Both the position numbers and the translations under genes were made by a program. Shown one piece after another: positions 18,772 through 39,153 of a stretch of DNA of 59,663 nucleotides. Each line of letters opens with the position of its first letter. Position 1 is the stretch's first letter. The DNA is from Myxococcales bacterium (GTDB lineage: Bacteria > Myxococcota_A > Polyangia > Polyangiales > Polyangiaceae), in the NCBI GenBank assembly GCA_003154095.1, contig PMCK01000061.1, positions 1 to 59,663 on the forward strand, given 5' to 3'. Below the pieces are notes generated by a model. It made no database searches and was not told where the DNA came from. It saw only the letters and a program-made list of their open reading frames with translations.

Positions 18772-18845
18772 GGCGATTGCAATGCTGCTCAAGGGCCCCC
18801 TTTGGGATGCCTACACGCACAAATAGTGACTTCGAGGTAACGAAA

Positions 18846-20132: not shown

Positions 20133-20278
20133 AGTTACCTGGCCGAAACTGTTACCAGAGTGTCGCGGTATTTTATCGGACAAGCTACCGAGCCGGATCG
20201 AGGGTCGGTCGACTCCGATTGTGTTGAATCGCAGTCTACTTTTCAGCAATTGGAGGGCATATCTGGTAGTGTCACGCT

Positions 20279-26300: not shown

Positions 26301-26660
26301 TTACTCCGCCTTGCGGCCCCTGCGTTGACAACGAAGATTGTTCCCCACGACGCGCTTCGTAAGGGCCACTTCACCAGGCTCAATATCAAAGTCGACAACC
26401 AGGGAGAGCGGCCAGCCCGCGACATCAAGGTCGAGCTCTCGGGTCCAATGGAAGGGCGGACATTTACCGTGGACCAAGAGCTTCGCACCGGCGCAGGAGC
26501 TGTCTATGATAACCAGTCAGTGCAGCCGAAAGAAGATGGCGCGGTTCCGCTAAGGGTGCGTTTGACTTGCGTCGACGATCGAGGCATCGAACACGTTTTT
26601 GAGTCGGAACATGTTCTCGACGTGGGTGCGGCGTCGGCGGTGAAGCAGGAGGTGTCGTGA
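23307..26660 (+). CDS. TIR - helical region - 3x54-aa TerB/DjlA-N-like repeats - Pro linker - PQQ/WD-like beta-propeller - CARDB-like Ig domain
   Basis: AAGGAG 9 nt upstream of GTG. RDIFISHAGEDEIVVRTLADGLEREGYNTWYYERD...LILVVASPNSLRSHEVTSELKVA (TIR). Repeats YKAAIE.V.FDNGQIS.EE.QKLE.LAK.LRVP.EV.KRLE. Propeller blades such as LAGTWDGRVLSLRSEDGSQQW and FVGSYAGHVARLGPNGQKEW. C-terminus LNIKVDNQGERPARDIKVELSGP. Confidence 0.85.
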   Translation: MSEPRDIFISHAGEDEIVVRTLADGLEREGYNTWYYERDSVFGEAHLIQTMHAIEQAKLILVVASPNSLRSHEVTSELKVASRKGKLVAPLLLGVTWDQATAKELWSVVFGVASALTINPDHVLDILPRMLTGLTAMGVVPSGGAASAKSISVEYPFPIAATYIQKLGRPWGPEQSVQAHEAIRDMVEAAVAYLAVIATCRYRREIHSPGREDLAVESVLGNLCEPGLTDWVVLLFSSLKAHVLASDPLATRISKFLDTRHDSSDAVSVAAVNLKKWIDRNAPPPNSVANRDFIDLLSNYARVQEGWGGSGTRLTGHDECQNRVDILRPAVERMLLDLSFLTGYPLVYVQDVQHISDRIWSHRIYDGMGRDLVVKNEQLQSHKPLERSHVYLCQRGEKSLQPLVDLEPLLVLQDCPTCGVPSMLLSAMRKIGRAEGVSLNCRHKTEWDDNRTHELATFLSLSDWCSSFLPTEHLPYKAAIEEVVFDNGQISTEERQKLEFLAKALRVPLEVTKRLEDQALADYHRQQTEYKAAVEMVIFFDGQISAAEKQKLESLAKRLRVPPEVAKRLEEQTFAAYHRQQTEYKAAIETVIFDNGQVSTEKRQELESLAKRLRVPPEVAKRLEDQAFADYQEKQAEIQQRDAEARGIEKPGAQSSVQVIPPGVDIPPKTTPHEAPTPPTKQFLPVWQEGLESKPTHVALFAAPPIALAVDEAGEVTVHGRDGKLVFRDRVHDRAFGVAAAGARVFVTTWSGDIYCFGPREVLWHRHVGSPVSAIHVATGSLGLLAGTWDGRVLSLRSEDGSQQWTTSFEDGISALAAATDGSACFVGSYAGHVARLGPNGQKEWVRDMRAGVMQVAMTDDEGDMVVATRHGVLTQLQAKTQATVLEHFFESALVDVGFSGNRRRVSVALQSGKVQVCDIDGAVHVRTQEKFENVSQTAFSPLSSSGRFPFVVSRSKGLAFFDDQASGWNIVVEPPVACASISTEGRAVLVARTDHIELLRLAAPALTTKIVPHDALRKGHFTRLNIKVDNQGERPARDIKVELSGPMEGRTFTVDQELRTGAGAVYDNQSVQPKEDGAVPLRVRLTCVDDRGIEHVFESEHVLDVGAASAVKQEVS
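24732..25217 (+). repeat. Three tandem 162-nt coding repeats
   Basis: Units start at 24732, 24894 and 25056. Units 2 and 3 share an identical 59-nt block (ctcgagtctctcgcgaagaggttgcgtgttccgccggaagtggccaagagattggagga). Confidence 0.9.
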
Positions 26661-27820
26661 TGAGGTCTTGTGAGTCATGTGGTAAGAGCTTGAGACCGGA
26701 GCAATTCATTTGTGAATGCGGTGCAGCGGCAGGTGTTGCTCAGCCTGAAATAGGCAACTTCGGCGAAATCGACATGAAGGTGCCAAAACTCGATCTGGGC
26801 AAGGCAGAGTTGCGATCCCTCGATCTGTCCTTCGCGGGCGCGAAGGGCGGTTCTCTTCCGAGCTTCGACCTCAAGAGTATGGCGGACGCGAATATTGATC
26901 TCAGAACTCGGCAAGGGAGCCGCGGCCGGCCCTATAGGATAGAGTTCGCAATTGGCGGAGCCGAAGCAGACAGCGTCAGACTGTGTCGCCCGGCTGCCGT
27001 GGCGTGCCTGCCGAATCGTGATCTTCTGGTGCTCGACTTCAAAAACGAGGAGAGCGGCGTCAGAATTCAGCGGTTTGATGCCGACGGCGGTCTGCGAAAA
27101 GTCGTGACGCAGCAAGGAAAGGATAGCTCCGAAGGTTCCATCGCAGTACCTGCGGCGTTAGCCATTGACTTTCGGGAACACATTTTCGTTTCCGATATGG
27201 ACGGCGGCTGCGTTAAGGAGTTCGGTGCCGACGGTGCTTTCTTGAGTTCGCACGGTCGCGCCGGGACCGGCGAGGGAGAGTTAGATACACCGCGGGCCTT
27301 GGTCGTAGACGCGAAGGGAAACCTATACATTGCCGATTCTGGGAACAACCGGATTACTCGCTGGCGGGAATACAACCAAGATCTCGTGGTCGGCATCAAC
27401 CGGCTCGACGAGGCGTACGGTTGGCTCCAGGCGGGAGATGGTCCTGGCGAGTTCGACGATCCACAGGGGCTCGCGTTGGGATCCAGCGGCCACATTTTCG
27501 TTGCCGATACCAACAATCACCGTATACAGAAGCTCGATTCCCTCGGGCAATACGTATCGTCGTTCGGGTCGGAAGGGGAGGAGGCGGGAAAGCTCTCGTA
27601 CCCGAACCACGTTCGTCTTGGCCCCGGTGACGAGATCCTCGTTGCCGATCTTGGTGGCCGTCGTCTCCAGAGCTTCGACGATGACGGAAACTTCTCATAT
27701 GAGATCGCCCTGCCAGAAGACGCAGGTGCGCTGACCGACTTCGCGGTAGACTCACAGGGCCGCATCGTAATTGCTCTCCCGAGTCGTCACCTTGTCATCG
27801 CGATGGAGGTCTCTCGATGA
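26657..27820 (+). CDS. Zinc-ribbon + six-bladed NHL-repeat beta-propeller protein (cytoplasmic)
   Basis: GTG 26657 or ATG 26660 overlaps the upstream TGA. CESCGKSLRPEQFICECG. NHL blades LDTPRALVVDAKGNLYIADSGNNRITRW, FDDPQGLALGSSGHIFVADTNNHRIQKL and LSYPNHVRLGPGDEILVADLGGRRLQSF. No signal peptide. Confidence 0.85.
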   Translation: MMRSCESCGKSLRPEQFICECGAAAGVAQPEIGNFGEIDMKVPKLDLGKAELRSLDLSFAGAKGGSLPSFDLKSMADANIDLRTRQGSRGRPYRIEFAIGGAEADSVRLCRPAAVACLPNRDLLVLDFKNEESGVRIQRFDADGGLRKVVTQQGKDSSEGSIAVPAALAIDFREHIFVSDMDGGCVKEFGADGAFLSSHGRAGTGEGELDTPRALVVDAKGNLYIADSGNNRITRWREYNQDLVVGINRLDEAYGWLQAGDGPGEFDDPQGLALGSSGHIFVADTNNHRIQKLDSLGQYVSSFGSEGEEAGKLSYPNHVRLGPGDEILVADLGGRRLQSFDDDGNFSYEIALPEDAGALTDFAVDSQGRIVIALPSRHLVIAMEVSR

Positions 27821-30800
27821 CCATTGGCAGACTTTCGGATACGCGCCGATGGAGTGACGAGTCGGCGCAGGCGCCCGGTGAAACGCCGGTTCGCCGCTAC
27901 GAGCGCTTGGTTGAGAAGATCGACGGGATCATTGACGATCCCAATGCACGGATGCGTCTCGCCAACGAGATGTACTCGCTGGCCGTTGGAAACGACGCTC
28001 GTTCGCTCCCGCACTTGCGCCTCCAAGCCCTACTGCAAACAGTACGGCTCGATCCCTTTCGCCGCCAATTCCGCCTCGCGTTGGTGCGGGCGCAGCGCGA
28101 GCTTGGGCTCGTGAGCGAAGCGATGGCGGTACTTCAAAGTGTCAAGAACGACGGTTTCGCCCTGGACGATGAAGGAAATCTCGAACTAGGCCAAACTTTG
28201 CTGGAGTCAGGTAAGGTCAATGACGCAAGAGCCCATTTTAAGGACGTGCATGCCGGCAAGGCACGAGTTCAGGCCGAATTCGATCTAATTGAGTGCGATC
28301 TTCGCTCTGCTGGTACTGTCGATGAGTGGAAGAAAGTGCTCCGTTCGCTCAAAGATTTGAAGCTCCCCGACTTTGGGCCTGGCGACTCTCAAATCGTAGG
28401 GCTGTTCAGCGAGAAGTGCCTCAAGTTTGCCGTGGAGTGCGACGACCAGGCGTTGATCGACGAATTGGTACAGGTCGCCAAGGCTAAGCTCGATTCGAAT
28501 AGAGCCCCCGGTAGTACTCGGCACCCCGTCTACAGATTGTTTCTCAGTGTTGTGCGATTGCCCGAATCGGTCGAGTTCCCTGCGGGAGCTTTGGAGGGCT
28601 TGTTGCTCGCCCATCGCCTAATAAAGCGTACGCCGGTGACAGGCGAAGAGGAAGACCGCATCAAGGCAATGAAGGAGTGGCGGAATCTTATCACGACCAA
28701 AAAGTCGCGATGGTTCGGACTCAATGAAGCCTACTTGCACGTCATAGACGGTTGGGCGATGGATGTGTATCGCCGCAAGGAATTTCAGCTCGCGCAATCC
28801 CTGTGGAGCGAGGCGGAACGAGTCGCCCCGAGCAGCCCTCAAGTGCTCAAGAACCTGGCAATTGTCAGTACGCGCATGGCTGACGAATCCAACTTCGATT
28901 GGTACTGGAACCGTCTCACCCGTGTCTGGAATTTACAAGCAGAGCTTGCGCCGGAGGCTGATGGATACATGCAGGCACTTCAGGAGAAATGCCAGGCGTT
29001 TTCGGAAGGCGCTGAGAAGAAACTTGCGGGCGTTCGTGTGCCGGAGGACCGGTTAGAACTTGCGCTCATCTGGGCCAAAGAGGGGCTTTCATTCAGGGCG
29101 CTCCGGCAGTTGAGGTTTCGCAACGCTTTCCTGCGCTGCGGTGTTCTGACCGAAGACTTCGCCAACGAGACCGAGCGAGACACCTTGCTCGACATTGGTC
29201 ATAGGAGCGCGAGCCGCGCGCTGGAACTCGTCGCACACTGGCAACAGCTCGGTGGGCATTCCGAGCTCGCTCGCCATCGTCAAGCGCGTCTCGACGACGC
29301 ACTAAGTCTTGCCAAGACTCAAGGCTCACAGAAATACGTCGGTTACGACATTGACAAGGACGCCTTCTTGGCTCACCGAAAGGCGACCGTATGTCATTTC
29401 CTCGGGCTGCTGGGCTTGCTTCAGCAAATGAACGTCAATGTCGCTGATGCAGAGATCCGGCGAAAGATGGCCGTTGTCGCGCAGTGCGTTTGCAGCTTTC
29501 CACTTCGCCTTCTCAAGGCCGAGGTGCTGAAGTTGGTCCCGAATTTCACCGAGGAAACTCATCTCGGCCAGTTTGCCGAGGGCGTCGCGCTCGGGCCGTG
29601 GTTATCCCTCGGTCAGCAGTCTTTGCGCGCCGGCGACGCAAAAAAGGCTCTAGCCATTCTCGGAGAAGCACTCTCGATCGCTCCTGATTCGGCAGTTGTG
29701 CGGTTTCTATTGGCGCAGTGCCATGCCACGACAAAGAACTTTTCGCAGGCCTTCGAGGTTCTGGTCGAGGCGCGCAAGACCTGTGAAGACAAAGAACTTG
29801 GTCAGCAAATTGATCAATTTGCTGACCAAATGGACTTCGCTCGGGTCGATCAGGCGTTGGAAAAAGCGAAGAGCTGCCTACAGAAGAACGATTCCGTGGG
29901 TGCCGTCCGCGAATGTTCTGGCCTCCGCTCGACGTTTGGGAACCACGCATATCTCTTGTTCATGCTAGCAAGAGCTCAGGCGGCGAATCTCGACTTCAAC
30001 GACGCAAAGACCAGCCTGAAGGCGGCCCGAGCTGCGAGAGGTGAACGCAAAGAGGACGAGCTCCTTCAAGGCATCGAGTCATTTCTCGGAGATATCGAGA
30101 AGTCAGCGCCACTCATGGTCCTATCGAAGGCAGTCCCGCTGATGCAGGAGCAACACTGGGACGATGCGCTCAAGGTGCTAGTAAAGGGTCGGTGCCTCGA
30201 GCCGCCGGATCCGAGGGTCACGTATTATGAAGCCATATGCCTGGGGCGTTCTGGGACAACCGACCAGGCCGAGAGGGTTGCCGCAGAAGCTCTTGAGCAG
30301 TGCAAGACGCTTCAAAGGGCCCACTTAAACGGTCGCGAGACCACCTCCTCACTTAGCCTGAAAGAGACTGGAGCGCTGGCAAAGGAGATTGAAGCTTCAA
30401 TTCCTCAGATCCCGCTCATGGCAATCGCGCAAGAATTGGGCGACGCCCGACAGGCAATGAGCAAGGAACGCTGGAGCGAAGCGCTCGGACATCTGGCACA
30501 GGCGCTTCGAAAGCGACCGAAGGCGGTGCCGGCTCTATTTCTGAAGGCCGTTTGCTGTTTCCGCATGGAGGATTGGGATCAAGCCGAGAGAATCGCCAGA
30601 GAAGCACAGCCATTCTGCGGGCCCCACGACGAAGACGAGCGCAAGCAGCTCGGACTTATCATTGAGCAAGTTCCTCTGGCCCGCATCGCTAAGGACATGG
30701 AGGCGATCAACCAGTGCCTAAGAAAGGAGCGATGGGAAGCCGCGTTCGTGCACATTGATGACGTTTTGCGCAAAGATCCCACGCAGCCGGCGTGCCTCTT

Positions 30801-31521
30801 CTATCGGGCACTCTGCCACTTCCGACTCGAGAACTGGGACGAGGCAGACAGGGCGGCACGCACGGCCTTGAAGTCCGTCACCCAGAAAGAGATTCGTGAT
30901 CAGCTCAACACAATCGTCGAGCAGATCCCGCTAGCTCGCGTCGCGAAGGACATGGATGAGATCAACAAGTGTCTCAAGAAAGAGCGGTGGGCAGCAGCAC
31001 TCGAGCGCATTGATGCCGTTCTACGCAAGGAAGCCGCGCATCCGATGTGCCTCTTCTATCGGGCACTTTGCCATTTCCGACTGGAGAATTGGGACGAAGC
31101 CGAGCGCGCCGCACGCTTGGCCTTAGGTTCCGTCAAGCAGCAGGAGATCCGCGATCAACTCAATATGATCGTCAAGGGCATAGAGCACAAGAAGCAGGAG
31201 GCCAAACTGTCTGGGGTCATCTCGGCCATCAACCGTCAAGCACATGGTGAAGCCTTGAGACTACTCGAACCCCACCTACGAGAATCGCCTCGTGATGCCT
31301 CCTTGTTGTTCTTCAAGGGGCTCTGTGAGTTCCGGCAAGTGATGGATCAGATTAACTCTGGATCGTTGAGGCCCAGCCAGAGTCTATTCGATGATTGCGA
31401 AGCGACGCTCAAACTGGCGGCGCTGTTTGCGGTGGATTCCGATATGAAAGTCCAAATTACGGCGGTGCAGAACAACATCACTTCGGTGCGCGAGACCTTG
31501 CGAGCCCAAGGATTTTGGTGA
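27817..31521 (+). CDS. 1234-aa TPR/helical-repeat scaffold protein
   Basis: ATGA overlap with the upstream gene. All-helical with many TPR-like hairpins, and three ~85-aa internal repeats near the C-terminus. Confidence 0.8.
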   Translation: MTIGRLSDTRRWSDESAQAPGETPVRRYERLVEKIDGIIDDPNARMRLANEMYSLAVGNDARSLPHLRLQALLQTVRLDPFRRQFRLALVRAQRELGLVSEAMAVLQSVKNDGFALDDEGNLELGQTLLESGKVNDARAHFKDVHAGKARVQAEFDLIECDLRSAGTVDEWKKVLRSLKDLKLPDFGPGDSQIVGLFSEKCLKFAVECDDQALIDELVQVAKAKLDSNRAPGSTRHPVYRLFLSVVRLPESVEFPAGALEGLLLAHRLIKRTPVTGEEEDRIKAMKEWRNLITTKKSRWFGLNEAYLHVIDGWAMDVYRRKEFQLAQSLWSEAERVAPSSPQVLKNLAIVSTRMADESNFDWYWNRLTRVWNLQAELAPEADGYMQALQEKCQAFSEGAEKKLAGVRVPEDRLELALIWAKEGLSFRALRQLRFRNAFLRCGVLTEDFANETERDTLLDIGHRSASRALELVAHWQQLGGHSELARHRQARLDDALSLAKTQGSQKYVGYDIDKDAFLAHRKATVCHFLGLLGLLQQMNVNVADAEIRRKMAVVAQCVCSFPLRLLKAEVLKLVPNFTEETHLGQFAEGVALGPWLSLGQQSLRAGDAKKALAILGEALSIAPDSAVVRFLLAQCHATTKNFSQAFEVLVEARKTCEDKELGQQIDQFADQMDFARVDQALEKAKSCLQKNDSVGAVRECSGLRSTFGNHAYLLFMLARAQAANLDFNDAKTSLKAARAARGERKEDELLQGIESFLGDIEKSAPLMVLSKAVPLMQEQHWDDALKVLVKGRCLEPPDPRVTYYEAICLGRSGTTDQAERVAAEALEQCKTLQRAHLNGRETTSSLSLKETGALAKEIEASIPQIPLMAIAQELGDARQAMSKERWSEALGHLAQALRKRPKAVPALFLKAVCCFRMEDWDQAERIAREAQPFCGPHDEDERKQLGLIIEQVPLARIAKDMEAINQCLRKERWEAAFVHIDDVLRKDPTQPACLFYRALCHFRLENWDEADRAARTALKSVTQKEIRDQLNTIVEQIPLARVAKDMDEINKCLKKERWAAALERIDAVLRKEAAHPMCLFYRALCHFRLENWDEAERAARLALGSVKQQEIRDQLNMIVKGIEHKKQEAKLSGVISAINRQAHGEALRLLEPHLRESPRDASLLFFKGLCEFRQVMDQINSGSLRPSQSLFDDCEATLKLAALFAVDSDMKVQITAVQNNITSVRETLRAQGFW
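30409..31180 (+). repeat. Three tandem ~255-nt coding repeats within the TPR gene
   Basis: Units begin at 30409 (IPLMAIAQELGD), 30670 (VPLARIAKDMEAINQ) and 30925 (IPLARVAKDMDEINK). Units 2 and 3 are very similar (CLFYRALCHFRLENWDEA.RAAR.AL). Confidence 0.85.
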
Positions 31522-31528
31522 CGGTGCC

Positions 31529-31939
31529 ATGATCGTTCTCGAAATAGATGAAGAATCCGGAGCGTCACACTTCGAGATTCTCGGGATCTCAATAAGCGAC
31601 CTCGAAGGGCTTGACGACAAGGCCCTTACGAACAGGGTGCGCGACAGCGCCAAGTCTGGAGCGAAGTCCTGTCGCGAAAGGGCTAAGGCGGGCGACAAAG
31701 AGGCACCTGCGATGGAGGCCCGAATCCGTCAGGCGGAAGGCGAGCTCAAGGACAAGGAAAAGCGCAAGAAGTACCTGGAAGAACTCCAACAGGGCAAAGC
31801 CGGGGGGCTGGATGTACTTCGCGTGGAAAGGACCGCGCCTGCATTCTTTTGGGATCGAGCGACTCGGTTTCGCGCCATAACACAAGCGCTACGAGATCAA
31901 GGTTGGACCAGCAGTCTTATGAACGACGACACACTCTAG
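31529..31939 (+). CDS. J-like domain protein lacking the HPD motif
   Basis: SHFEILGISISDL ... ELKDKEKRKKYLEEL mimics the J-domain ends (dyYeiLGv ... L.D.ekR..Yd). No HPD tripeptide anywhere in the 136 aa. Confidence 0.55.
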   Translation: MIVLEIDEESGASHFEILGISISDLEGLDDKALTNRVRDSAKSGAKSCRERAKAGDKEAPAMEARIRQAEGELKDKEKRKKYLEELQQGKAGGLDVLRVERTAPAFFWDRATRFRAITQALRDQGWTSSLMNDDTL

Positions 31940-31964
31940 GGTCTACAAAGAAGAGGACAGAAGG

Positions 31965-32657
31965 ATGGATCAGACGGAAACAACCGATGGCGTCGCGAAC
32001 TCCGATGCCGAGACAAAGATCGAAGCCGCCGAGGAGCGATGGTCTCGGCTTGAGAAGGTGGTACGCGGAATGGGCCGAGATAGCCTCACTGTCGCACGCG
32101 GCCAACAGGAAACGCAATCGGCGCTCGCAGCGATATCCGCGCGCATCGACGATCTAGATCTTGCCATCAAGGGGGTGTCGCAGACTGCATGGCGGGCGGC
32201 CCAAGAGCGGCTGGGGCAAGCACAGGAAATTGAGAAGCATTTCGCTGGCGCACTTCGGGAGCTCGAAAAGCGGATACGCGAGGAGCTCCTCTGGCAGATC
32301 CAGCGAAACGCTCTGCTAGCCATCTTTCCAGCGTTGGACGACATGGCACGCGTGGTTTCGCTACAGCGAGAACTTGTTGTCGCCAAAGGCAATGAAGATC
32401 CCTTTTTGGAGGCCATGGAACTTGTACACCACAAGGCCATCGAGGGGCTCCGTGCGTTCGGCATGGAAGAGATTTCGGTGGAGGTGGGAGTCACACGTTT
32501 CGATCCCGCGCTGCATGAGGCAAAAGAACTTGGGGAGACTGCAGCGGTGAGCGACAACGAAAGTGTCGCCTCTGGTACGATTATTGGCGTAGGCCGAACG
32601 GGTTATAAGATACAGGATCGCGTGTTCCGCGCGCCACAAGTTTTCGTGAAGCCCTAG
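31965..32657 (+). CDS. grpE: GrpE-family nucleotide exchange factor
   Basis: Coiled-coil N-terminus, then LLAIFPALDDMARV, GMEEISVEVGVTRFDPALHEA and GTIIGVGRTGYKIQDRVFRAPQVFV, the canonical GrpE C-terminal pattern. Confidence 0.8.
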   Translation: MDQTETTDGVANSDAETKIEAAEERWSRLEKVVRGMGRDSLTVARGQQETQSALAAISARIDDLDLAIKGVSQTAWRAAQERLGQAQEIEKHFAGALRELEKRIREELLWQIQRNALLAIFPALDDMARVVSLQRELVVAKGNEDPFLEAMELVHHKAIEGLRAFGMEEISVEVGVTRFDPALHEAKELGETAAVSDNESVASGTIIGVGRTGYKIQDRVFRAPQVFVKP

Positions 32658-32681
32658 CAACGAACGAGACAAGAGCAAAAT

Positions 32682-34622
32682 ATGGCAAAGATAATTGGTA
32701 TTGATTTGGGAACGACATATTCGGCGATTTCGATTTGGGATGAGAAACGGAAGATCCCTGTAATCATCCCAAACCTACGTGGCGCGAACACGACCCCGTC
32801 GGTGGTCAGTGTCAACGAGGGCGGGCAGGTTATCGTCGGGCAGGACGCCAAACAGAACCTTTGGGTCGCACCGGAAGACACGGTCTCGCAGATCAAACGC
32901 GAGATGGGAAACGACTTTTGGGTCACAATGAAGGGCCAGAAGTACAACCCTCAGATGATCTCGGCATTCATTCTCAAGTACCTGAAGACCTGCGCCGAGC
33001 AACATCTGGGTGAACCTGTGCACGACGTCGTCATCACGGTTCCAGCTGAGTTTACTGACATCAAGCGAGCGGCAACGCGGGACGCGGGTCTTATTGCAGG
33101 CTTCAACGTTCACCGCCTCATCAACGAGCCGACGGCAGCGGCTATTGCCTACCAGGTGAATCGGGCAGAGGGCGGCAACAAGGTCTACGCGGTTTATGAC
33201 TTTGGCGGTGGAACGTTCGACGTGTCGGTCATTGAGATAACACCCGATGACGTGACCGTTATTGGAACGGGTGGCGATCCGCGACTCGGTGGGCTCGACA
33301 TGGACGAGGCAGTGATGCGCTGGTTGGTGCGAGAGATTGGCACGAAGTACAGTGTTGATCTCAGTAACGACGAACCCGCAAAGCAGCGCCTCAAAGTCGA
33401 CGCCGAAGAGGTGAAAAAGGCGCTCGTGGCAGCCGACAGTTTCACGTTGAGCGTTCCCTATCTTGCCGTTATCAACGGGAAGCCCCTCAGCGTGAAGCTT
33501 GACGTGACCCGTGCTCGCTTCGACATGCTCATTGCGCCGCTGCTCAACAGGTCGCTTGATTGCCTGGATGCAGCGGTCAAGAGCGCTGAGGAGAAGAACG
33601 GGCGTGGTTGGGAGTCGATCGACGGCATTTTGGTTGTGGGCGGGCCGACGCGCCTGCCTCGAATTCGCGAAGTTTTGAGGGAGCGCTTGCGCGAACGTTG
33701 TCCGGATCGCGATGTCGAGTTGAAATGCGATCTCAATCCCGACGAAGTGGTGGCCTTGGGCGCAGCCATTGTCGCGAGTGGGATCGTTCCCATTGGTCGC
33801 CCGCCAGAAGAAGTCGAGAGTATGTCCACCGAACAGAAGCAGGCGATACAGGAGAAAGGTGCGGCTGAAGTCGCTGCAACTGCTCCCAAGCTCGATATCT
33901 TCGACGTAACCGGTCACTCGCTCGGCATTGCCGTGGAAGGCACCAAATTCCACAAGATTATCGAGAAGGAAAGCGTCATTCCAATTGCGATGTCGCACGG
34001 ACCCTTCACAAACGGAGGAGACTTTACGACCGAACTCCTGGTAGAGGTCTACCAAGGAGAGGAGGCATTTGTCCAGGCGAACACCAAGATAGGCGAAGTC
34101 CGTATTACCGGTCTCGAACCATTGCCAAGACAACAGCAAATGCTGGAAGTGAAGTTTTCCCTCGATGTGAGTGGGACGCTCTCAACCGTTTGCACAGACA
34201 TGAGAACGAAGAAAACGTACACCGGCTCCTTCACGTTCGACGGCATCACCCGAATGAGCGGGGATGAAGTCAAGAAGCGGCGACAAGTGCTGCAGCAGAT
34301 GATGCCAACCAATACTCCACAGGCCACAAATACCGCCACGGCACCGGCGATGCAGCCATCGGGCTCTCAACCAAGTGCTGCTGCAACGTCTTCGACATCG
34401 CCGACGGCTGTTCCCGAACTCCCCGAGGATCAAATCCCGAGAGACTGCATTGTCTACTGGAAAGAAGCGCAGGACTGCCTCAAGGTGGCAACTGTGGAGC
34501 AACGGCTCCGTCTGGTAAACGCCATGACGGCGTTTGCCCAAGCGATGCAAACCAAGGACCCAAAGCTAATTGAGAAAGGGTCTTTCCTCCTTCAAGATGT
34601 CCTCTTGGAAGTGAGGACTTAG
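32682..34622 (+). CDS. Hsp70/DnaK-family ATPase with divergent, low-complexity C-terminal lid
   Basis: MAKIIGIDLGTTYSAIS, VITVPAEF, NEPTAAAIAY, DFGGGTFDVSVIE, VGGPTRLPRI, and linker/SBD FDVTGHSLGIAV. The C-terminus is P/T/A/S-rich (TPQATNTATAPAMQPSGSQPSAAATSSTSP). Confidence 0.95.
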   Translation: MAKIIGIDLGTTYSAISIWDEKRKIPVIIPNLRGANTTPSVVSVNEGGQVIVGQDAKQNLWVAPEDTVSQIKREMGNDFWVTMKGQKYNPQMISAFILKYLKTCAEQHLGEPVHDVVITVPAEFTDIKRAATRDAGLIAGFNVHRLINEPTAAAIAYQVNRAEGGNKVYAVYDFGGGTFDVSVIEITPDDVTVIGTGGDPRLGGLDMDEAVMRWLVREIGTKYSVDLSNDEPAKQRLKVDAEEVKKALVAADSFTLSVPYLAVINGKPLSVKLDVTRARFDMLIAPLLNRSLDCLDAAVKSAEEKNGRGWESIDGILVVGGPTRLPRIREVLRERLRERCPDRDVELKCDLNPDEVVALGAAIVASGIVPIGRPPEEVESMSTEQKQAIQEKGAAEVAATAPKLDIFDVTGHSLGIAVEGTKFHKIIEKESVIPIAMSHGPFTNGGDFTTELLVEVYQGEEAFVQANTKIGEVRITGLEPLPRQQQMLEVKFSLDVSGTLSTVCTDMRTKKTYTGSFTFDGITRMSGDEVKKRRQVLQQMMPTNTPQATNTATAPAMQPSGSQPSAAATSSTSPTAVPELPEDQIPRDCIVYWKEAQDCLKVATVEQRLRLVNAMTAFAQAMQTKDPKLIEKGSFLLQDVLLEVRT

Positions 34623-34638: not shown

Positions 34639-36291
34639 ATGTCCAGCGCGAACCTAGGTTCCTACCGCTACGAAGATGCTGCCGTCGCGACTGATGCGTT
34701 TGGTCCCATCTATGAAGGGATCGATACGAACTCGAAGCAGCCAGTGTACTTGAAGGCGTTCTCACGAAAGAAAGCAGAGGACGGCATGGACCGGGCCGTC
34801 CTGCGCTGGCAGACAGTCGAACATGCGAGCCTGTTGATGCCGAAAGAGACATTGTCAGCCGGCGGTTCAACTTGGGCAATTCTGCCGAATCCAGGTGGAA
34901 TCCTGCTAAGCCGCAGCGTTCCGGATCTGCTTCGAAACGGGGTCCAGGGCCGACATCGGCTGCTTTCTGCTCTCGTGGACGCTTGCAGAGCCGTGGAAGC
35001 GCTGCATGCGCTAGGCATTGTCCATGGGCAGATCAATCCGACTAGCGTGGTAGTCGGCAGTCCCGATGTGCCGCCGCAAGGTTGGCTGCTACTTTGCGAT
35101 CGATTCGCACCGCGAATCGCACGGGACTACATAGCCGCTCCAGATTGCCTTTCCTTTGTCCCGCAAGAGCAACTCAGGGGCGGGGGGAGTTTTCAAGCGG
35201 ATATTTATGCGCTCGCCATGCTGGTGCACACGAGCTTTGCAAAGCGGGATGTGGATGGGGATCCATGCGGATACGAGCGCGCCAAACTCATTGTGTGGGG
35301 AGAAGCGTTGCCGTTCACAGCGAATCTCGAAGGCCTTGTACCCGAGGCCGCAAACGCATTGAACATGGATCTGGAGACGCTTGCCGCAGTCACCGCCAAG
35401 GGGATCCAAAGGAATCCTGGCGCGCGCTATCTAACGGTCGGCGAACTGCGCCAAGCGCTCGAGGAGCTTTGCCGGCGCATGGCACCGTTCGCACTCGGAC
35501 AGCGGATGCATAGCGAACGGCGATTCTTGGAGGCCGCGGCCGTTTTCGAGGAAGCAAAGTCGGGACCTCACGCAGTCCTGGCGCAGGTCTTCCATGGCCG
35601 AACCGTTGGACTTGATCTCGGCCAATATGACGACGGAATAGTGAGTTTTCGGCAAGCTCTCAAGGCGGATCCTGGACTTGAAAGCGCCCACCTCGGGCTC
35701 GCCGAGATCTATTTGCGACAATCACGCTATTCGATGGCCAAGCGAGAATATGAAGAAATGTTGGCGACGCGACCCGACGATCTTCAACTTCTAATGGGCT
35801 ACGCGAACGTGCTACACGCAAGCGGAAATATCGAGGGCGCCTTGAACGTTCTGCGGAATGTTCAGTCAGGAAGTCCCTACTACCTTCCGTCCTATATAAG
35901 AGCGATTCATATTGGACTCGAGCACGGCAACCTCAAGGACGCTGAAAGGGACTCCAACCTTGCCATCAAGCATATCAATGAAGTCGTGAAGCGGGGCAAC
36001 CTAAGCCCCGACGATCTGGCTGAAATCTACTATTTGCGCGGAGTAGTCCTAGCGACAATGGGGGCGAACGAGAACGCCAGTCGGTGGGCTGAGAAGGCGC
36101 TGGGTCAAATGCCTTTGCACGTTGAGAGTCACAAGTTACTGGCTGAACTTTATGGATCGATGGGGCGACTCGACAAGTCCATGGAGCACTTCGTTACCCT
36201 GCTTCAGATTGACCCCGATCAGGACGGAATAGTGGCTGCACTCGGAAGACTCTTGAATGCCCATTTGGATCAACCAGAAATGTCGAACTAA
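34639..36291 (+). CDS. Protein-kinase-fold (predicted pseudokinase) + TPR repeats
   Basis: VYLKAF (VAIK-like Lys). IVHGQINPTSVVV stands in place of HRDLKPxN, so there is no catalytic Asp. CDRF stands in place of DFG. ADIYALAMLVH (subdomain IX). C-terminal TPRs (AHLGLAEIYLRQSRYSMAKREYEEML...). Confidence 0.75.
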   Translation: MSSANLGSYRYEDAAVATDAFGPIYEGIDTNSKQPVYLKAFSRKKAEDGMDRAVLRWQTVEHASLLMPKETLSAGGSTWAILPNPGGILLSRSVPDLLRNGVQGRHRLLSALVDACRAVEALHALGIVHGQINPTSVVVGSPDVPPQGWLLLCDRFAPRIARDYIAAPDCLSFVPQEQLRGGGSFQADIYALAMLVHTSFAKRDVDGDPCGYERAKLIVWGEALPFTANLEGLVPEAANALNMDLETLAAVTAKGIQRNPGARYLTVGELRQALEELCRRMAPFALGQRMHSERRFLEAAAVFEEAKSGPHAVLAQVFHGRTVGLDLGQYDDGIVSFRQALKADPGLESAHLGLAEIYLRQSRYSMAKREYEEMLATRPDDLQLLMGYANVLHASGNIEGALNVLRNVQSGSPYYLPSYIRAIHIGLEHGNLKDAERDSNLAIKHINEVVKRGNLSPDDLAEIYYLRGVVLATMGANENASRWAEKALGQMPLHVESHKLLAELYGSMGRLDKSMEHFVTLLQIDPDQDGIVAALGRLLNAHLDQPEMSN

Positions 36292-36308: not shown

Positions 36309-38930
36309 ATGATGGAGAGAGTTCTGGCGTGTCTGTTCTTGGTTGGTACAACGTCAATGATTGCTGGAGGCTTGTGGGGTGCGCGCAAGTTAAATATTCC
36401 TTGGCAGTTTGAGGCCGCGATTATATTCGTCAATCTTCCGGCACTTCTAGTGCTCTTGGGCATTGCGAGAGGACGTCTGCGGCTCTCGAAGGGCTTACGA
36501 GCTCTCGCCTCTGCTGCGATCGCTGTCGCGGCCATGACCTGGGCAAATCACAAGCGGCACATGGCATGGCCGTTGGCCGTGGGATCAGGGTTGGCCGCCT
36601 TTTTTCTGTTGGTGGTCGTGTTCCGCCGCCGTGAAGCGCAAGGTGAGCTCGCACTTCGGCGTGCAAACAACGCTTTGCAGTCAGACAACCTCAATCCTGA
36701 CGAAGCAGTCGTAGCATTGGCCGAAGCTGAAGCCGCGTTCGGTGGCGAGGCGCCGATGGGCCAGCAAGCGCTTCTCGAGTGGCTGTCGGCGTCTGTCCAC
36801 GCAAACCTCGGAAACCTGACCCGTTCTGCGGTTCACGCCAACGAAGCGCTGCGACTATATCAAAGGCTCGGCCAGTCGCAAAGTGTAACCGTAGTGCGGG
36901 ATTTCATAAGTAAACTCAGTCAAAATGTGGCGACTCGGCAAACCGGGGGCCCAAGTTCGACAAAGGCCCTTCAGTATTCGACGCCGCTGGCGCTCTTCGG
37001 TGTGCTGACGGTGGGTGCGCTACTTGCGCTGTATGGAATGTGGTCGCCGGCGAGAGTGCAGCTCCCCACTCATATGCTTCTGGCAATTGGCATCGCGCTC
37101 GGCGTCTGGTTCCTCGGATTGCCTTGGTTCTTGGCCAAAGCTGAGCGAGTGACGGCGTCAACGATTGGGTTCATGTCTTTCAGCCTCGCTATACTTGGAA
37201 CGTTGATTTCGATTGCAGGAGTCGCCATCGAACACCATTGGCTAGCCTCCAACAATTTGCCGGCATTTATCCAAAAACCTTCGCAGGTTTTTCAAGAATG
37301 GCTAGGTCACCTGCCTTGGTGGATGCCCATCGCGGCCCTCGTCCTGTTCCTGTCGCTGGCATTGACCGCAGTCTTGCTACTGAAAGGTGGGTCAATCGAG
37401 AAGACGCTGGAAGCCGCCGAGCGCGAACTTCTTTCCGAGAAATGGGACCGCGCAATTACTATGCTGTTGGCGGTCGACGTTCGGCGCGAGCGAAATTTGG
37501 TGGCTAGAGCCCAAGTACTCTTCTGTCTCGCATTCGCGTATCGCATGTCGGGCGCGCATACCGAGGCGAAGGAGCGGTTAGCCGCTTTGCTCGACGCCTG
37601 CCCCGGGCATCACGAGGGACTCTACCTCGCCGGGTACTTGGCGAGCGATGCAGGCGAGCTTGACAGCGCAGCGTCATTCTGGCGTCGACTTTACGAAATC
37701 GACCCGACGTTTGGTCCGTCTCCCTCCGATCCTCATCGCACGGTCGCGTATTTTCTATCCGTCGTGCTGTATAGGAAGGCTCTCGGCCTGATGGCGACCC
37801 AACCCGAGGCAGGTGCAGAATTGTTGGCGGAGATTGGCGCCATCGGGGCGATGGATAAGATTCTTTCGAAGACGCTGGTTCGAGTGCATTGTCATCGCGG
37901 CACAGAACTGGTGCGCCAGCGACAGTGGCAAGCTGCGGAGAAGGAATTCGAACTCGCCAAACAGAAAGTCAGTGTCCTCGAGCCGACGGACAGCGAGCAC
38001 CGTGACACCAGGAAGCTCCAGGCGCTGTGCGAAGCTGGCCTCGGTATCGTTGCATTGAAGAAGGACAACCACGGGGCTGCCGTCAAAGGGTTCGTGAAAG
38101 CACGAGAAGTCATCAAAGACATGATCGGCGACGCGCATGCATTCGGTGGAGAAGAAGACCTTCTCGCCCAACTTCTCCGCGCTGCCGCGAGGAAACGCAG
38201 CGACGAGAACTCTATTGATCCCGCATTTGCACGCGACGCCAGTTTCTCAGCGGGAATCGCGCAGCTCGCCACATTAAGGCAACAACTCGAGCACAGTGCT
38301 ACTTGCGATTGGCGTAGCGCTCTTGCGGTTGCACAGCGGTCTTTTGAAGAGAGTCTCGAGGCGTCACCGATGTTCGCGGAAGGAGCCGCAATGCTGGGTC
38401 TCCTCTACTGCTATTGCGGGGCTAGTGCGGCAGAAAAAGCCAAGGGTCTCGAGCTCTTAAAGAAGGTTCAGGAACGGGTTGGGAGCAAGTTTGTTGTTGA
38501 GACCGTCGCGCAACAGGACGCCTCACAAAAGGATCATGCCGAGGCGCGAGACTCATATTTTCAAGCTTTTCAAGAGTACTTACGCTCGTCGAACGTCCCG
38601 AGGTCCGAACGTCAAAAAATGCGCGATGAAATGCTGGAACGAATGAAAGTAATGGGTCAGGACAAAGCCTTCATGGGTCGAGGTGGGCTCCAAATCGATC
38701 AAGACCGCGAACAGGAGCCAACCATCAAGGAATATCTAGCTCGCGCGGCCATGCTGCGAGCGAAGCTCATGAAACTCGGCACGGACGAGGGTAACCCGTT
38801 GAATGCAGAGCTCCGAATGCTATTGGAGGAACTAGGAAAGAAGAGTGAGGAACTCGAGTCGCACGCGCGCAGCGTCGTGGAAACGGAAAAGAAGATCATG
38901 CAACAAGCCCAAGCCTTGCTATTCAGCTGA
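36309..38930 (+). CDS. Polytopic membrane protein (4 TM - TPR insert - 4 TM) with ~480-aa C-terminal TPR domain
   Basis: GGAGGAG RBS. Hydrophobic helices include VLACLFLVGTTSMIAGGLWGA, AAIIFVNLPALLVLLGIA, WPLAVGSGLAAFFLLVVVF, LALFGVLTVGALLALYGMW, LLAIGIALGVWFLGLPWFLA, FMSFSLAILGTLISIAGVAI and PIAALVLFLSLALTAVLLL. Confidence 0.8.
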   Translation: MMERVLACLFLVGTTSMIAGGLWGARKLNIPWQFEAAIIFVNLPALLVLLGIARGRLRLSKGLRALASAAIAVAAMTWANHKRHMAWPLAVGSGLAAFFLLVVVFRRREAQGELALRRANNALQSDNLNPDEAVVALAEAEAAFGGEAPMGQQALLEWLSASVHANLGNLTRSAVHANEALRLYQRLGQSQSVTVVRDFISKLSQNVATRQTGGPSSTKALQYSTPLALFGVLTVGALLALYGMWSPARVQLPTHMLLAIGIALGVWFLGLPWFLAKAERVTASTIGFMSFSLAILGTLISIAGVAIEHHWLASNNLPAFIQKPSQVFQEWLGHLPWWMPIAALVLFLSLALTAVLLLKGGSIEKTLEAAERELLSEKWDRAITMLLAVDVRRERNLVARAQVLFCLAFAYRMSGAHTEAKERLAALLDACPGHHEGLYLAGYLASDAGELDSAASFWRRLYEIDPTFGPSPSDPHRTVAYFLSVVLYRKALGLMATQPEAGAELLAEIGAIGAMDKILSKTLVRVHCHRGTELVRQRQWQAAEKEFELAKQKVSVLEPTDSEHRDTRKLQALCEAGLGIVALKKDNHGAAVKGFVKAREVIKDMIGDAHAFGGEEDLLAQLLRAAARKRSDENSIDPAFARDASFSAGIAQLATLRQQLEHSATCDWRSALAVAQRSFEESLEASPMFAEGAAMLGLLYCYCGASAAEKAKGLELLKKVQERVGSKFVVETVAQQDASQKDHAEARDSYFQAFQEYLRSSNVPRSERQKMRDEMLERMKVMGQDKAFMGRGGLQIDQDREQEPTIKEYLARAAMLRAKLMKLGTDEGNPLNAELRMLLEELGKKSEELESHARSVVETEKKIMQQAQALLFS

Positions 38931-38940
38931 GGAGAACCTC

Positions 38941-39153
38941 ATGTCGCAACAACTCCTTTCGAAACTGCTTGCAAACTTGCCGCCCATCAATGCCGAGCAG
39001 GGGGACTTCGGCAAGACGCTGGAGAGCAACCTAGTCGAAACGCAACTACTTCGACTGGCCACAGTTTCATTGGATCAGGAGACGCAGGTTCTGCGCACGA
39101 TCCTCGATAGCCTGGGGAAGATCCCGAAACGCGGCCAACCGAGCAAGCCCTGA
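38941..39153 (+). CDS. 70-aa hypothetical protein
   Basis: ATG 38941 follows GAGGAG, 10 nt after the upstream stop, and the ORF ends 2 nt before the vWA gene start. No motif recognised. Confidence 0.5.
   Translation: MSQQLLSKLLANLPPINAEQGDFGKTLESNLVETQLLRLATVSLDQETQVLRTILDSLGKIPKRGQPSKP

What the first reader, a model, noticed from the sequence alone, without database searches (positions are those of the whole stretch)
31529..34622. Dedicated chaperone triad with a J-like protein that has no HPD motif
Seen: J-like (136 aa), GrpE-like (230 aa) and Hsp70 (646 aa) lie in a row with 24-25-nt spacers. Hsp70 keeps all ATPase motifs (DLGTT, DFGGGTFD, GGPTRLP), but its lid is replaced by a P/T/A/S-rich tail. 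The J-like protein keeps the helix I and helix IV ends (HFEILGIS ... DKEKRKKY) but has no His-Pro-Asp. Established: HPD is required for a J-domain to stimulate Hsp70 ATPase, and HPD-less J-like proteins act as regulators or adaptors rather than activators. Inference: a specialised Hsp70 whose activation is held off or delegated, possibly to another operon product. This would fit a switch rather than general proteostasis.
Basis: partly seen in the sequence, partly recalled or inferred. Interest (0 to 1): 0.65.

Follow-up and report, generated by a model that had tools for sequence, protein, structure and literature searches.

The report
Private Hsp70 set with HPD-less J-protein
Three adjacent genes encode a private Hsp70 chaperone, its own GrpE exchange factor and a true J-domain protein that has lost the His-Pro-Asp trigger; they form the core of a rare nine-gene cassette, conserved across phyla and armed with TIR or caspase-like domains, that looks like an undescribed chaperone-driven switch of a bacterial conflict (anti-virus type) system rather than a protein-folding machine.

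Summary
The three ORFs, their sizes, the 25- and 24-nt spacers and the quoted motifs are all present. A profile of the 136-aa protein's family matches solved J-domains (E 3.7e-9; hhalign 97% against E. coli DnaJ), and its AF2 model superposes on J-domains. None of 26 family members has HPD.

The Hsp70 is not the housekeeping DnaK. The genome has a canonical dnaK-grpE locus and 12 ordinary J-domains elsewhere. This Hsp70 keeps every ATPase residue and the GrpE loop. It has lost Q378, the partner of the HPD aspartate, and D326, a docking-clamp residue. It also carries about 29 extra residues before a degenerate linker.

The lid is not simply replaced by a tail. A P/T/A/S-rich linker leads to a conserved 62-aa C-terminal domain.

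The triad always sits in the same cassette: [TIR, CHAT or DUF4062], β-propeller, NHL, giant TPR, J-like, GrpE, Hsp70, pseudokinase-TPR, membrane-TPR, small protein. I found it in Acidobacteriota and Chloroflexota. Some Hsp70s of the clade are fused directly to TIR or CHAT.

Best reading (about 0.55): an Hsp70-type NTPase switch of a conflict system. No experiment supports this, and I found no description of the cassette. Earlier notes of this scan reported related cassettes on other DNA.

The parts
31529..31939 (+). J-like protein, 136 aa. It has a conserved N-terminal hydrophobic strand (MIVLEIDE), a J-domain at about residues 12-87 with an 8-residue insert between helices I and II, R49-E50-R51 in place of HPD, and a conserved C-terminal extension (LDVLRV..APAFFWDR.TRFRAI, with a helix at 110-123).
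31965..32657 (+). Divergent GrpE-like nucleotide exchange factor, 230 aa. The GrpE fold covers residues 86-228, after an N-terminal region of about 85 aa specific to this protein.
   Evidence: PF01025, 1e-15; all NCBIfam GrpE equivalogs far below their cut-offs; present next to the Hsp70 in every related locus
32682..34622 (+). Non-canonical Hsp70, 646 aa. The NBD has all catalytic residues. A 29-35-aa insert (about 369-403) precedes a degenerate linker (LDIF). SBD-beta is intact. A P/T/A/S-rich linker spans 542-584, followed by a conserved 62-aa C-terminal domain. Q378 is replaced by V and D326 by S (E. coli DnaK numbering).
23307..26660 (+). First cassette gene: N-terminal TIR domain, three weakly TerB-like repeats, and a PQQ/WD-type beta-propeller. 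In relatives the TIR is fused, separate, replaced by CHAT or DUF4062, or absent.
   Evidence: orthologues
26657..27820 (+). NHL-repeat propeller protein. It overlaps the neighbouring gene by 4 nt on each side.
   Evidence: conserved in position
27817..31521 (+). TPR scaffold protein of 1234 aa, ending 7 nt before the J-like gene.
   Evidence: conserved in position in all related loci
34639..36291 (+). Pseudokinase fused to TPR. HGQINP stands in place of HRDLKPxN and there is no DFG. The same holds in all 8 orthologues aligned.
36309..38930 (+). Membrane protein with TPR-like cytoplasmic regions, 873 aa. An orthologue of about 870-900 aa holds this position in relatives.
38941..39153 (+). Conserved small protein of about 70 aa (..LL..LP.I......L...E.QLL.LA.VSL..ET..L). 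It is the last conserved gene of the cassette.
45935..48658 (+). RelA/SpoT-(SLOG)-RyR protein. It is not part of the conserved cassette but is a recurrent neighbour, also found next to the cassette in L034 and L040. It is a possible downstream effector of a TIR signal.

Best explanation
The three genes are a private, co-evolved Hsp70 machine: an ATPase-competent but allosterically re-wired Hsp70, a dedicated GrpE, and a J-domain protein without the HPD trigger. This machine is the nucleotide-driven core of a conserved nine-gene cassette. The other cassette genes encode repeat-type sensor or scaffold proteins (beta-propeller, NHL, three TPR proteins), a pseudokinase, a membrane anchor, and a swappable TIR, CHAT or DUF4062 domain at the front.

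Proposed working (inferred, not shown): the J-like protein still docks on the Hsp70 through its basic helix II. It cannot fire ATP hydrolysis the canonical way, because the HPD-Asp/Q378 contact is gone and D326 of the K414-D326 docking clamp is lost. The Hsp70 therefore idles in one nucleotide state while bound to the scaffold. A signal perceived by the repeat proteins, such as a foreign or misfolded protein, lets the cycle run, with GrpE resetting it. The resulting remodelling releases or assembles the TIR or CHAT effector. In this reading the Hsp70 plays the role that STAND/NLR NTPases play in other immune systems.

Shown: the homologies, the conserved gene order, the residue losses and the effector fusions. 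Inferred: the docking, the direction of the switch and the immune role.
For: J-fold and family-wide lack of HPD:
- establish the fold.
- 26 of 26 family members lack HPD.
- The J-like proteins of two sister-clade cassettes lack it too.

Hsp70 ATPase and GrpE dependence:
- D8, K70, P143, E171, D194, T199 and D201 are 100% conserved in 33 clade members.
- The GrpE-signature loop is full length and the K55-E267 salt bridge is kept, which fits a working dedicated GrpE.

Trigger and clamp residues lost on the Hsp70 side:
- Q378 is V, L or T and D326 is S, A or R in 35 of 35 clade members. The pre-linker segment is 40-51 aa against 17 in DnaK.
- In 118 Hsp70s these traits go together without exception: the 31 with Q378 all have D326 and R167, with a pre-linker segment of 17-26 aa against 32-51 aa in the 87 without Q378.
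- The roles of these residues are taken from Mayer 2021 (PMC8215388).
- On the J side, K48 is replaced by A, T or S and K51 by N, while basic residues at R22, K26 and R27 are partly kept.

Not housekeeping:
- Canonical dnaK-grpE lies on contig C476 and 12 J-domains lie elsewhere in the genome.
- The clade is monophyletic (SH-aLRT 100), on a long stem, and is neither HscA nor HscC.
- A full-length J-like protein is found in only 1 of 401 sampled genomes of the phylum.

Cassette conserved across phyla, including Ktedonobacterales and an Acidobacteriaceae MAG.

Conflict-system hallmarks:
- The front domain is TIR (window, L034, L035, L036), CHAT (L031, L032) or DUF4062 (L040).
- Clade Hsp70s are fused to TIR (P0037) or CHAT (P0047, P0062).
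- The pseudokinase is inactive in all orthologues.
- The window lies in a defence island: ABC-3C, a PglZ fragment, vWA-Tubulin_2, and TIR plus a RelA-RyR protein.

Conceptual precedent: HSP70+GrpE themes in conflict systems (PMC7159879), and HSP70-like NTPases standing in for STAND switches (preprint 10.64898/2026.10.19.760177).
Against: - There is no experimental evidence of any kind.
- No PADLOC model matches the triad.
- Two related cassettes (L027, L030) show no recognisable TIR or CHAT domain, so an effector is not obligatory or is undetected.
- R167, the other partner of the HPD aspartate, is retained in 30 of 35 clade members. A genomic canonical J-protein might therefore still act on this Hsp70.
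- Docking of the J-like protein on the Hsp70 is inferred from homology only; no complex model could be made.
- TIR and CHAT domains are not proof of immunity.
- The AF2 model is of moderate confidence (pLDDT 71.9), and all Foldseek E-values are above 0.01 because the domain is small.
Confidence: 0.55

Rival explanations
1. A dedicated assembly or remodelling chaperone for a large membrane-associated repeat-protein complex with a non-immune role, such as envelope, motility or developmental signalling. This would resemble what I recall of the specialised DnaK/GrpE homologues SglK/GrpS and StkA of Myxococcus xanthus (from memory, not checked here). The TIR or CHAT domains would then be regulatory add-ons.
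For: The invariant core consists of scaffold-type proteins plus a membrane protein. Some cassettes lack a detectable TIR or CHAT domain. The hosts are large-genome, complex soil bacteria.
Against: The front domain is swappable between TIR, CHAT and DUF4062, and the Hsp70 is directly fused to TIR or CHAT in some members. The distribution is patchy and very sparse: 1 of 401 genomes in the phylum, yet present in another phylum. The window lies in a defence island. The components are inactive (pseudokinase, HPD-less J), as described for conflict systems in PMC7159879.
Confidence: 0.25
2. The J-like protein is an activator after all, through a re-wired mechanism. Its invariant N-terminal hydrophobic strand (M-I-V-L-E-I) or its C-terminal PPFFWDR segment would supply in trans the signal that the degenerate interdomain linker (VLLL replaced by LDIF) and the missing HPD no longer give.
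For: The N- and C-terminal extensions are as conserved as the J-domain itself, and the N-terminus is unplaced in the monomer model (pLDDT below 50), as expected for a segment that binds a partner. The N-terminal strand resembles the canonical DVLLLD linker, while the clade's own linker is degenerate and preceded by a long tether. A dedicated GrpE implies that hydrolysis and ADP states do occur.
Against: This rests purely on sequence resemblance. No complex prediction or assay was possible. Acidic flanks make the strand a poor canonical Hsp70 ligand (general knowledge of DnaK binding motifs).
Confidence: 0.12
3. The J-like protein works as the regulatory half of a heterodimer with a true HPD-bearing J-protein encoded elsewhere in the genome, as Tim16/Pam16 does with Tim14/Pam18.
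For: The genome has 12 canonical J-domains. R167 is retained in most clade Hsp70s. One orthologue carries two J-like domains in tandem (L040/P0003), which hints at J:J pairing.
Against: No HPD J-domain is co-encoded in any of the 9 clade loci with the upstream region, nor in the 2 sister-clade cassettes read. The cassette moves between phyla, so a fixed trans partner is unlikely. Q378 and D326 are lost.
Confidence: 0.07
4. An ordinary housekeeping dnaJ-grpE-dnaK heat-shock operon with a decayed dnaJ.
For: The gene trio resembles the KJE set.
Against: A canonical DnaK (789 bits) with a GrpE lies on contig C476. The window Hsp70 scores 422 bits against the DnaK equivalog cut-off of 648. The HPD-less state is conserved in 26 of 26 members across phyla. 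The non-chaperone gene neighbourhood is fixed.
Confidence: 0.01

Closest known systems
[quoted passage not shown]
   Same: Three homologous components encoded together. All ATPase catalytic residues, the SBD-beta, the GrpE-signature loop and the K55-E267 salt bridge are retained. The J-domain fold is retained.
   Different: No HPD. Q378 and D326 are lost. There is an insert of about 29 aa before a degenerate linker, and lid helix B is replaced by a low-complexity linker plus a novel 62-aa domain. The set is accessory and very rare, and it is embedded in a fixed cassette of non-chaperone genes.
HSP70 + GrpE (+ DnaJ- or TPR-fused FNIII protein) theme of GAP1-N2 GTPase-centric conflict systems (Kaur, Burroughs, Iyer & Aravind 2020, PMC7159879)
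   Same: A private Hsp70 with GrpE and TPR partners in a predicted conflict system of bacteria with complex lifestyles. A second, inactive or NBD-only Hsp70 is sometimes present (L036, L052).
   Different: No GAP1, no TRAFAC GTPase and no FNIII protein were found in any cassette examined. The J-like protein is stand-alone and lacks HPD. A pseudokinase, an NHL protein, a beta-propeller and a TIR or CHAT front domain are present.
Tim16/Pam16 and other HPD-less J-like proteins of eukaryotes
   Same: A J-fold without HPD, presumed regulatory rather than stimulatory.
   Different: This family is bacterial. No paired HPD J-protein lies in the operon. It has its own N- and C-terminal conserved segments and an insert between helices I and II, and its Hsp70 partner has itself lost the trigger contacts.
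E. coli HscC with DjlB/DjlC, and HscA with HscB
   Same: A specialised Hsp70 paralogue with private co-chaperones.
   Different: HscA and HscC have deleted the GrpE loop, need no GrpE, and keep Q378, D326 and HPD/HPE J-partners (PMC8215388; PMC10410713). In the tree the window Hsp70 does not group with them.
STAND/NLR-type NTPase immune switches (effector, NTPase, repeat sensor)
   Same: The same overall grammar: a TIR or CHAT effector, a nucleotide-driven switch and TPR or propeller sensors. A single-chain TIR-Hsp70-TPR relative exists (P0079), and this substitution has been proposed in print (preprint 10.64898/2026.10.19.760177).
   Different: The NTPase is an actin-fold Hsp70 with two co-chaperones. 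The parts are spread over nine genes.

Membership tests
J-domain protein (JDP) family | Four-helix J-domain fold | tested here: met
   Family profile against the PDB: about 50 J-domains, best E 3.7e-9. hhalign 97.2%. Foldseek top hits are J-domains, TM 0.77 to 5nro_B.
J-domain protein (JDP) family | His-Pro-Asp motif in the loop between helices II and III | tested here: not met
   R49-E50-R51 aligns to HPD. 0 of 26 family members have HPD.
J-domain protein (JDP) family | Stimulates the ATPase of its partner Hsp70 | not testable with these tools
   Needs an in vitro ATPase assay.
GrpE nucleotide exchange factors | GrpE domain above the Pfam gathering score | tested here: met
   PF01025, 58.2 bits against a cut-off of 25.8, profile positions 34-163 of 165. 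NCBIfam GrpE equivalog cut-offs are not reached, so it is a divergent member.
Hsp70 superfamily | Hsp70 NBD plus SBD with catalytic residues | tested here: met
   PF00012, E 2.8e-119. D8, K70, E171, D194, T199 and D201 are conserved.
DnaK (housekeeping equivalog) | Score above the NCBIfam DnaK equivalog cut-off, and the canonical allosteric and J-contact residues | tested here: not met
   422 bits against a cut-off of 648. Q378V, D326S, a linker insert and a degenerate linker. A separate long-branch clade.
HscA / HscC | Groups with HscA or HscC, with the GrpE loop deleted | tested here: not met
   The tree places it apart. The GrpE loop is full length, unlike in HscA and HscC. HscA equivalog 303 bits against a cut-off of 708.
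GAP1-N2 GTPase-centric conflict system (Kaur et al. 2020) | One or two TRAFAC GTPases with GAP1 and an FNIII-repeat component in the neighbourhood | tested here: not met
   Pfam scans of all cassette genes in the window found no such GTPase, GAP1 or FNIII. The precomputed Pfam lists for 9 related loci show none either.
GAP1-N2 GTPase-centric conflict system (Kaur et al. 2020) | HSP70 plus GrpE with DnaJ or TPR partners | tested here: met
Known anti-phage systems (PADLOC-DB v2.0.0) | Any model matching the triad proteins | tested here: not met
   No hits for the J-like protein, GrpE or Hsp70. Only generic kinase and TIR model hits for neighbouring genes.

The most novel reading that the evidence does not exclude
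The HPD-less J-like protein and the Q378/D326-less Hsp70 are a re-invented trigger, not merely a silenced one. One version: the J-like protein's invariant N-terminal strand (MIVLEI) acts as a linker mimic in trans. Another version: the idle Hsp70 is a guard or decoy that is fired when an invader supplies what is missing, such as a phage-encoded HPD J-protein or a flood of unfolded virion protein, and this converts chaperone hijacking into TIR or CHAT activation. Either version would be a new allosteric logic for Hsp70s and a new principle of infection sensing.
Probability: 0.15. Interest if true: 0.85.

Novelty: new variant of a known kind. Interest (0 to 1): 0.66.

Why it matters
Hsp70 biology holds that a J-domain's HPD motif is indispensable for function. 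[quoted passage not shown] Here a whole lineage of Hsp70s and their private J-partners has lost both sides of the trigger contact. It has kept the ATPase, the exchange factor and strong sequence conservation. It is wired to TIR and caspase-like domains. If the reading is right, this is a tractable natural case of J-independent or re-wired Hsp70 control. It would also be a candidate new class of chaperone-driven immune switch, functionally parallel to NLR/STAND proteins.

Tried and rejected
- Scans of the single 136-aa sequence against Pfam, NCBIfam and PADLOC gave nothing. Single-sequence AF2 was poor (pLDDT 51.6). Only the family profile resolved the question.
- A word-based homologue search with the single sequence found 2 proteins. 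The exhaustive HMMER search was needed.
With the 3-sequence alignment it gave 3 loci.
- The genome-contig scan with the Hsp70 gave 2 loci. One, Enterococcus L010, has the gene order of an ordinary hrcA-grpE-dnaK-dnaJ operon (ORF sizes only, not scanned) and was dropped.
- C-terminal 62-aa domain: no solved-structure sequence match. hhalign to the DnaK lid (residues 555-591) gave only 16% probability. 'Lid remnant' therefore stays an unproven idea.
- CoCoNuT CnuD Hsp70-like proteins were considered and rejected. They have degenerate nucleotide motifs and a McrBC context (PMC11090510).
- GAP1-N2 membership was rejected because no GTPase, GAP1 or FNIII is present.
- The vWA-Tubulin_2 pair and the TIR-protease gene downstream are not part of the conserved cassette. 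They are absent from L009, L027, L030, L031, L034-L036 and L040.
- D477 and D481 changes were not used as evidence, because canonical DnaKs also vary at these positions.
No complex or Hsp70 model was made.


Full report
**1. Observation**

The window carries three + strand ORFs at 31529-31939 (136 aa), 31965-32657 (230 aa) and 32682-34622 (646 aa). The spacers are 25 nt and 24 nt, and GAGG-type ribosome-binding sites lie ahead of the GrpE-like gene and of the gene after the Hsp70.

- The 230-aa protein is a divergent GrpE: PF01025, E 1e-15, above the gathering score. Every NCBIfam GrpE equivalog scores far below its cut-off.
- The 646-aa protein is an Hsp70: PF00012, E 2.8e-119. It scores 422 bits against the DnaK equivalog cut-off of 648.

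**2. Is the small protein a J-domain?**

As a single sequence it matches nothing in Pfam, NCBIfam or PADLOC, and it folds poorly on its own (pLDDT 51.6). An exhaustive HMMER search found a small family.

- A 12-member profile of that family hits about 50 solved J-domains and essentially nothing else. The best hit is the E. coli DnaJ J-domain at E 3.7e-9.
- hhalign against the E. coli DnaJ J-domain gives 97.2% probability, E 4.4e-11.
- The AF2 model built with the alignment (pLDDT 71.9) has the four helices. Its top Foldseek hits are J-domains, including the DnaK-bound J-domain 5nro_B (TM 0.77, rmsd 2.6 A). Foldseek E-values are weak because the domain is small.
- The same profile picks out only the J-domain part (positions about 12-84, at most 46 bits) of ordinary DnaJ/CbpA genes in 238 other genomes of the phylum. 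Only the window's genome gives a full-length match at 189 bits.

The J-fold is therefore real. DnaJ H33-P34-D35 aligns with R49-E50-R51 of the window protein. None of 26 distinct family members has HPD, and the proline position is never proline.

The family has three features of its own:
- an invariant N-terminal hydrophobic strand, M-I-[VIL]-[LI]-[ED]-I;
- an 8-residue insert between helices I and II;
- a conserved C-terminal extension, L[DE]VLR..x3.[AP]P.FF.[DE]R..RFR.[IL]E.

This is a conserved, selected state and not gene decay.

**3. Is the Hsp70 the housekeeping DnaK?**

No. The 8.7-Mb genome has 13 Hsp70-profile matches. They include a canonical DnaK (789 bits) on contig C476 with a GrpE next to it, and 12 J-domains above the Pfam cut-off on other contigs.

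The database search shows a discrete group of about 35 clusters at 55% identity or more over the full length, followed by a sharp drop to about 40%. A quick ML tree of 62 rows (IQ-TREE, SH-aLRT only; the careful search did not finish) gives these results:
- The group is monophyletic, with support 100.
- It is sister to a second set of divergent Hsp70s.
- Both sit on a long stem away from E. coli DnaK, the genome's own DnaKs and Lachnospiraceae DnaKs.
- HscA and HscC fall elsewhere, on long branches.

**4. What has changed in the Hsp70?**

I aligned it to E. coli DnaK and took residue roles from Mayer 2021 (PMC8215388).

*Kept.* All catalytic and signal-transmission residues (D8, K70, P143, E171, D194, T199, D201, K414, P419, V440, L484) are kept in the 33 sequences scored (window plus 32 clade members): the seven catalytic ones in all 33, K414 in 32 and V440 in 31. 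The GrpE-signature loop is full length, whereas HscA and HscC have it deleted. The K55-E267 salt bridge is kept. This fits a working, dedicated exchange factor.

*Lost or altered.*
- Q378, one of the two partners of the HPD aspartate, is V, L or T.
- D326, the partner of K414 in the NBD-SBD docking clamp, is S, A or R.
- The hydrophobic linker VLLL is [VIL]-D-I-[YF].
- Segment 376-392 is 40-51 residues long against 17 in DnaK, which means an insert of about 29 residues exactly where J-domains dock.

Across the 118 Hsp70s retrieved, these traits go together without exception. The 31 proteins with Q378 all have D326 and R167, and their pre-linker segment is 17-26 residues. The 87 without Q378 (35 in the window's clade and 52 others) all lack D326, and their segment is 32-51 residues. 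E. coli HscA and HscC and both genomic DnaKs show the canonical state.

R167 is retained in 30 of 35 clade members, so the site is not wholly erased. On the J side, DnaJ K48 and K51, which contact SBD-beta, are replaced by A/T/S and N. The basic helix II positions R22, K26 and R27 are partly kept.

Both partners have thus shed the triggering contacts while the positioning face survives in part. This reciprocal pattern is the main new evidence for a re-wired rather than a broken pair. It rests on alignment, not on structure.

**5. The lid**

After SBD-beta and a short remnant of helix A, residues about 542-584 are P/T/A/S-rich. They lead to a 62-aa C-terminal domain that is conserved across the clade (invariant P, W, L, F-A, L-Q-D). 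It has no solved relative by sequence. Its resemblance to DnaK lid helices C-D is weak (hhalign 16%).

**6. Genomic context**

Nine related loci with the region upstream of the triad present, from four sources, show the same order:

[TIR, CHAT or DUF4062] - PQQ/WD-type beta-propeller - NHL propeller - TPR protein of 1050-1260 aa - J-like (127-140 aa; once a tandem of 249 aa) - GrpE - Hsp70 - kinase-like TPR protein of about 550 aa (a 354-aa remnant lacking most of the kinase fold in L031/L032) - membrane/TPR protein of about 880 aa - small protein of about 67 aa.

These are L026; L027; L030; L031 and L032, Ktedonobacterales; L034; L035; L036; L040. (L009, an Acidobacteriaceae MAG) shows the downstream half. 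L030 departs at both ends: it lacks the beta-propeller and the ~880-aa membrane protein, and a 115-aa membrane-like ORF stands in place of the small protein.

- The small protein is conserved in sequence, including in the window at 38941-39153.
- The kinase-like domain is a pseudokinase in all 8 orthologues aligned: H-G-x-I-N-P in place of HRDLKPxN, and no DFG.
- Four loci add a 234-aa HExxH protein that the window lacks.
- The vWA-Tubulin_2 pair and the Asp-protease-TIR gene that follow in the window are not conserved with the cassette.
- A RelA/SpoT-SLOG-RyR or RyR protein recurs beside the cassette in the window, L034 and L040.
- Two cassettes of the sister clade also carry an HPD-less J-like gene immediately before GrpE and the Hsp70. 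One starts with a TIR-kinase fusion. A third has two TIR genes downstream.

**7. What kind of system?**

Several features match the grammar of prokaryotic conflict systems set out by Kaur et al. 2020 (PMC7159879):
- The front domain varies: TIR fused, TIR separate, CHAT, DUF4062, or none detected.
- The clade's Hsp70 is directly fused to TIR (P0037) or CHAT (P0047, P0062).
- Inactive versions of cellular enzymes are present (the pseudokinase and the HPD-less J-domain).
- Superstructure-forming repeats are abundant.
- The distribution is extremely sparse but crosses phyla.
- The window lies in a defence island with ABC-3C components and a PglZ fragment upstream, and two further TIR-type modules downstream.

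That paper describes an HSP70+GrpE(+DnaJ/TPR) theme, but inside GAP1-N2 GTPase systems. None of the cassettes examined here has a TRAFAC GTPase, GAP1 or FNIII component.

The same laboratory has since stated that an HSP70-like NTPase can take the place of a STAND NTPase as the switch of tripartite immune proteins (preprint 10.64898/2026.10.19.760177). P0079, a single-chain TIR/TPR/Hsp70 protein, is an example. PADLOC v2.0.0 has no model for the triad.

I found no paper describing this cassette or the HPD-less family. A recent review calls bacterial DnaK derivatives unexplored 'dark matter' (PMC13580251). The largest J-protein survey removed sequences without a full HPD (PMC10410713).

Earlier AI notes of this scan report related Hsp70/GrpE/J-like cassettes in other genomes (e1-3750544, e1-1069400, e1-981003). 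I treat these as leads, not as evidence.

**8. Mechanism proposed (inferred)**

The Hsp70 is an ATPase whose cycle needs a private GrpE. Its hydrolysis step is no longer governed by the canonical route of HPD, Q378 and the linker. The J-like protein probably still docks through helix II and, through its extra N- and C-terminal segments, ties the Hsp70 to the TPR, propeller and pseudokinase scaffold at the membrane. A cue sensed by the repeat proteins would let the cycle proceed. The resulting remodelling would free or assemble the TIR or CHAT effector, whose signal could feed a neighbouring SLOG/RyR-gated RelA enzyme.

Confidence by claim:
- High that this is a private, co-evolved and specialised triad.
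- About 0.55 that it is a conflict-type switch.
- Low for any detail of how the J-like protein acts.

The rivals are a non-immune assembly chaperone, a re-wired activator, a Pam16-like partner of a genomic J-protein, and a housekeeping operon. They are weighed in their own sections.

**9. Limits**

- There is no complex model.
- The tree is the quick version.
- The context sample is about a dozen loci, chosen for contig length.
- Taxonomic statements rest on a few named records.
- The immune role rests on guilt by association.

Noticed in passing
L036:11954-13615: One related cassette has a second Hsp70 (553 aa) right after the first, with K70 replaced by A and E171 replaced by S. It is a catalytically dead Hsp70 paralogue. 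A sister-clade locus (L052:5037-6554) has a 505-aa Hsp70 on the opposite strand. This recalls the 'second HSP70 without peptide-binding domain' noted by Kaur et al. 2020.
   Followed up: partly
L034:16610-17311, L035:14543-15247, L036:18503-19210, L030:16542-17237: A 234-aa protein with a conserved HELVH.xQH (HExxH, zinc-metallopeptidase-like) motif follows the small protein in four related cassettes. It has no Pfam hit and no counterpart in the window.
   Followed up: partly
L040:8490-9239 (= P0003): In the closest well-assembled relative the J-like gene encodes two HPD-less J-like domains in tandem (249 aa), which hints that the protein acts as a dimer.
   Followed up: no
P0012 (693 aa): A protein with two HPD-less J-like domains of the same subtype (same insert between helices I and II) fused to ankyrin repeats. 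The J-like subtype therefore also occurs outside the cassette.
   Followed up: no
own genome, contig C476:9449-9797: The housekeeping grpE next to the canonical dnaK matches the GrpE profile in two overlapping pieces in different frames. This is probably a frameshift or an assembly error in this MAG.
   Followed up: no
window 24750-25409: The three ~54-aa repeats of the TIR/propeller protein give weak, sub-threshold hits to TerB (PF05099, E 9e-4) and DUF533. The TerB-like module is the N-terminal domain of the J-protein DjlA, so a link to Hsp70 systems is conceivable but untested.
   Followed up: partly
window 45935-48658; L034:17551-20190; L040:17151-19724: A RelA/SpoT-SLOG-RyR (or RyR) protein lies beside the Hsp70 cassette in three of the loci examined, once with a NUDIX gene. 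It may be a functionally coupled effector of the TIR signal.
   Followed up: partly
window 16296-21266: Upstream of the cassette lie two ABC-3C CTD10 proteins (one with DUF2326), a membrane protein and a PglZ fragment. The whole window has the character of a defence island.
   Followed up: no
L051:1294-4020: A sister-clade cassette opens with a 908-aa TIR-protein kinase fusion (Pkinase hit). In the window's clade the kinase-like protein is separate and inactive.
   Followed up: no
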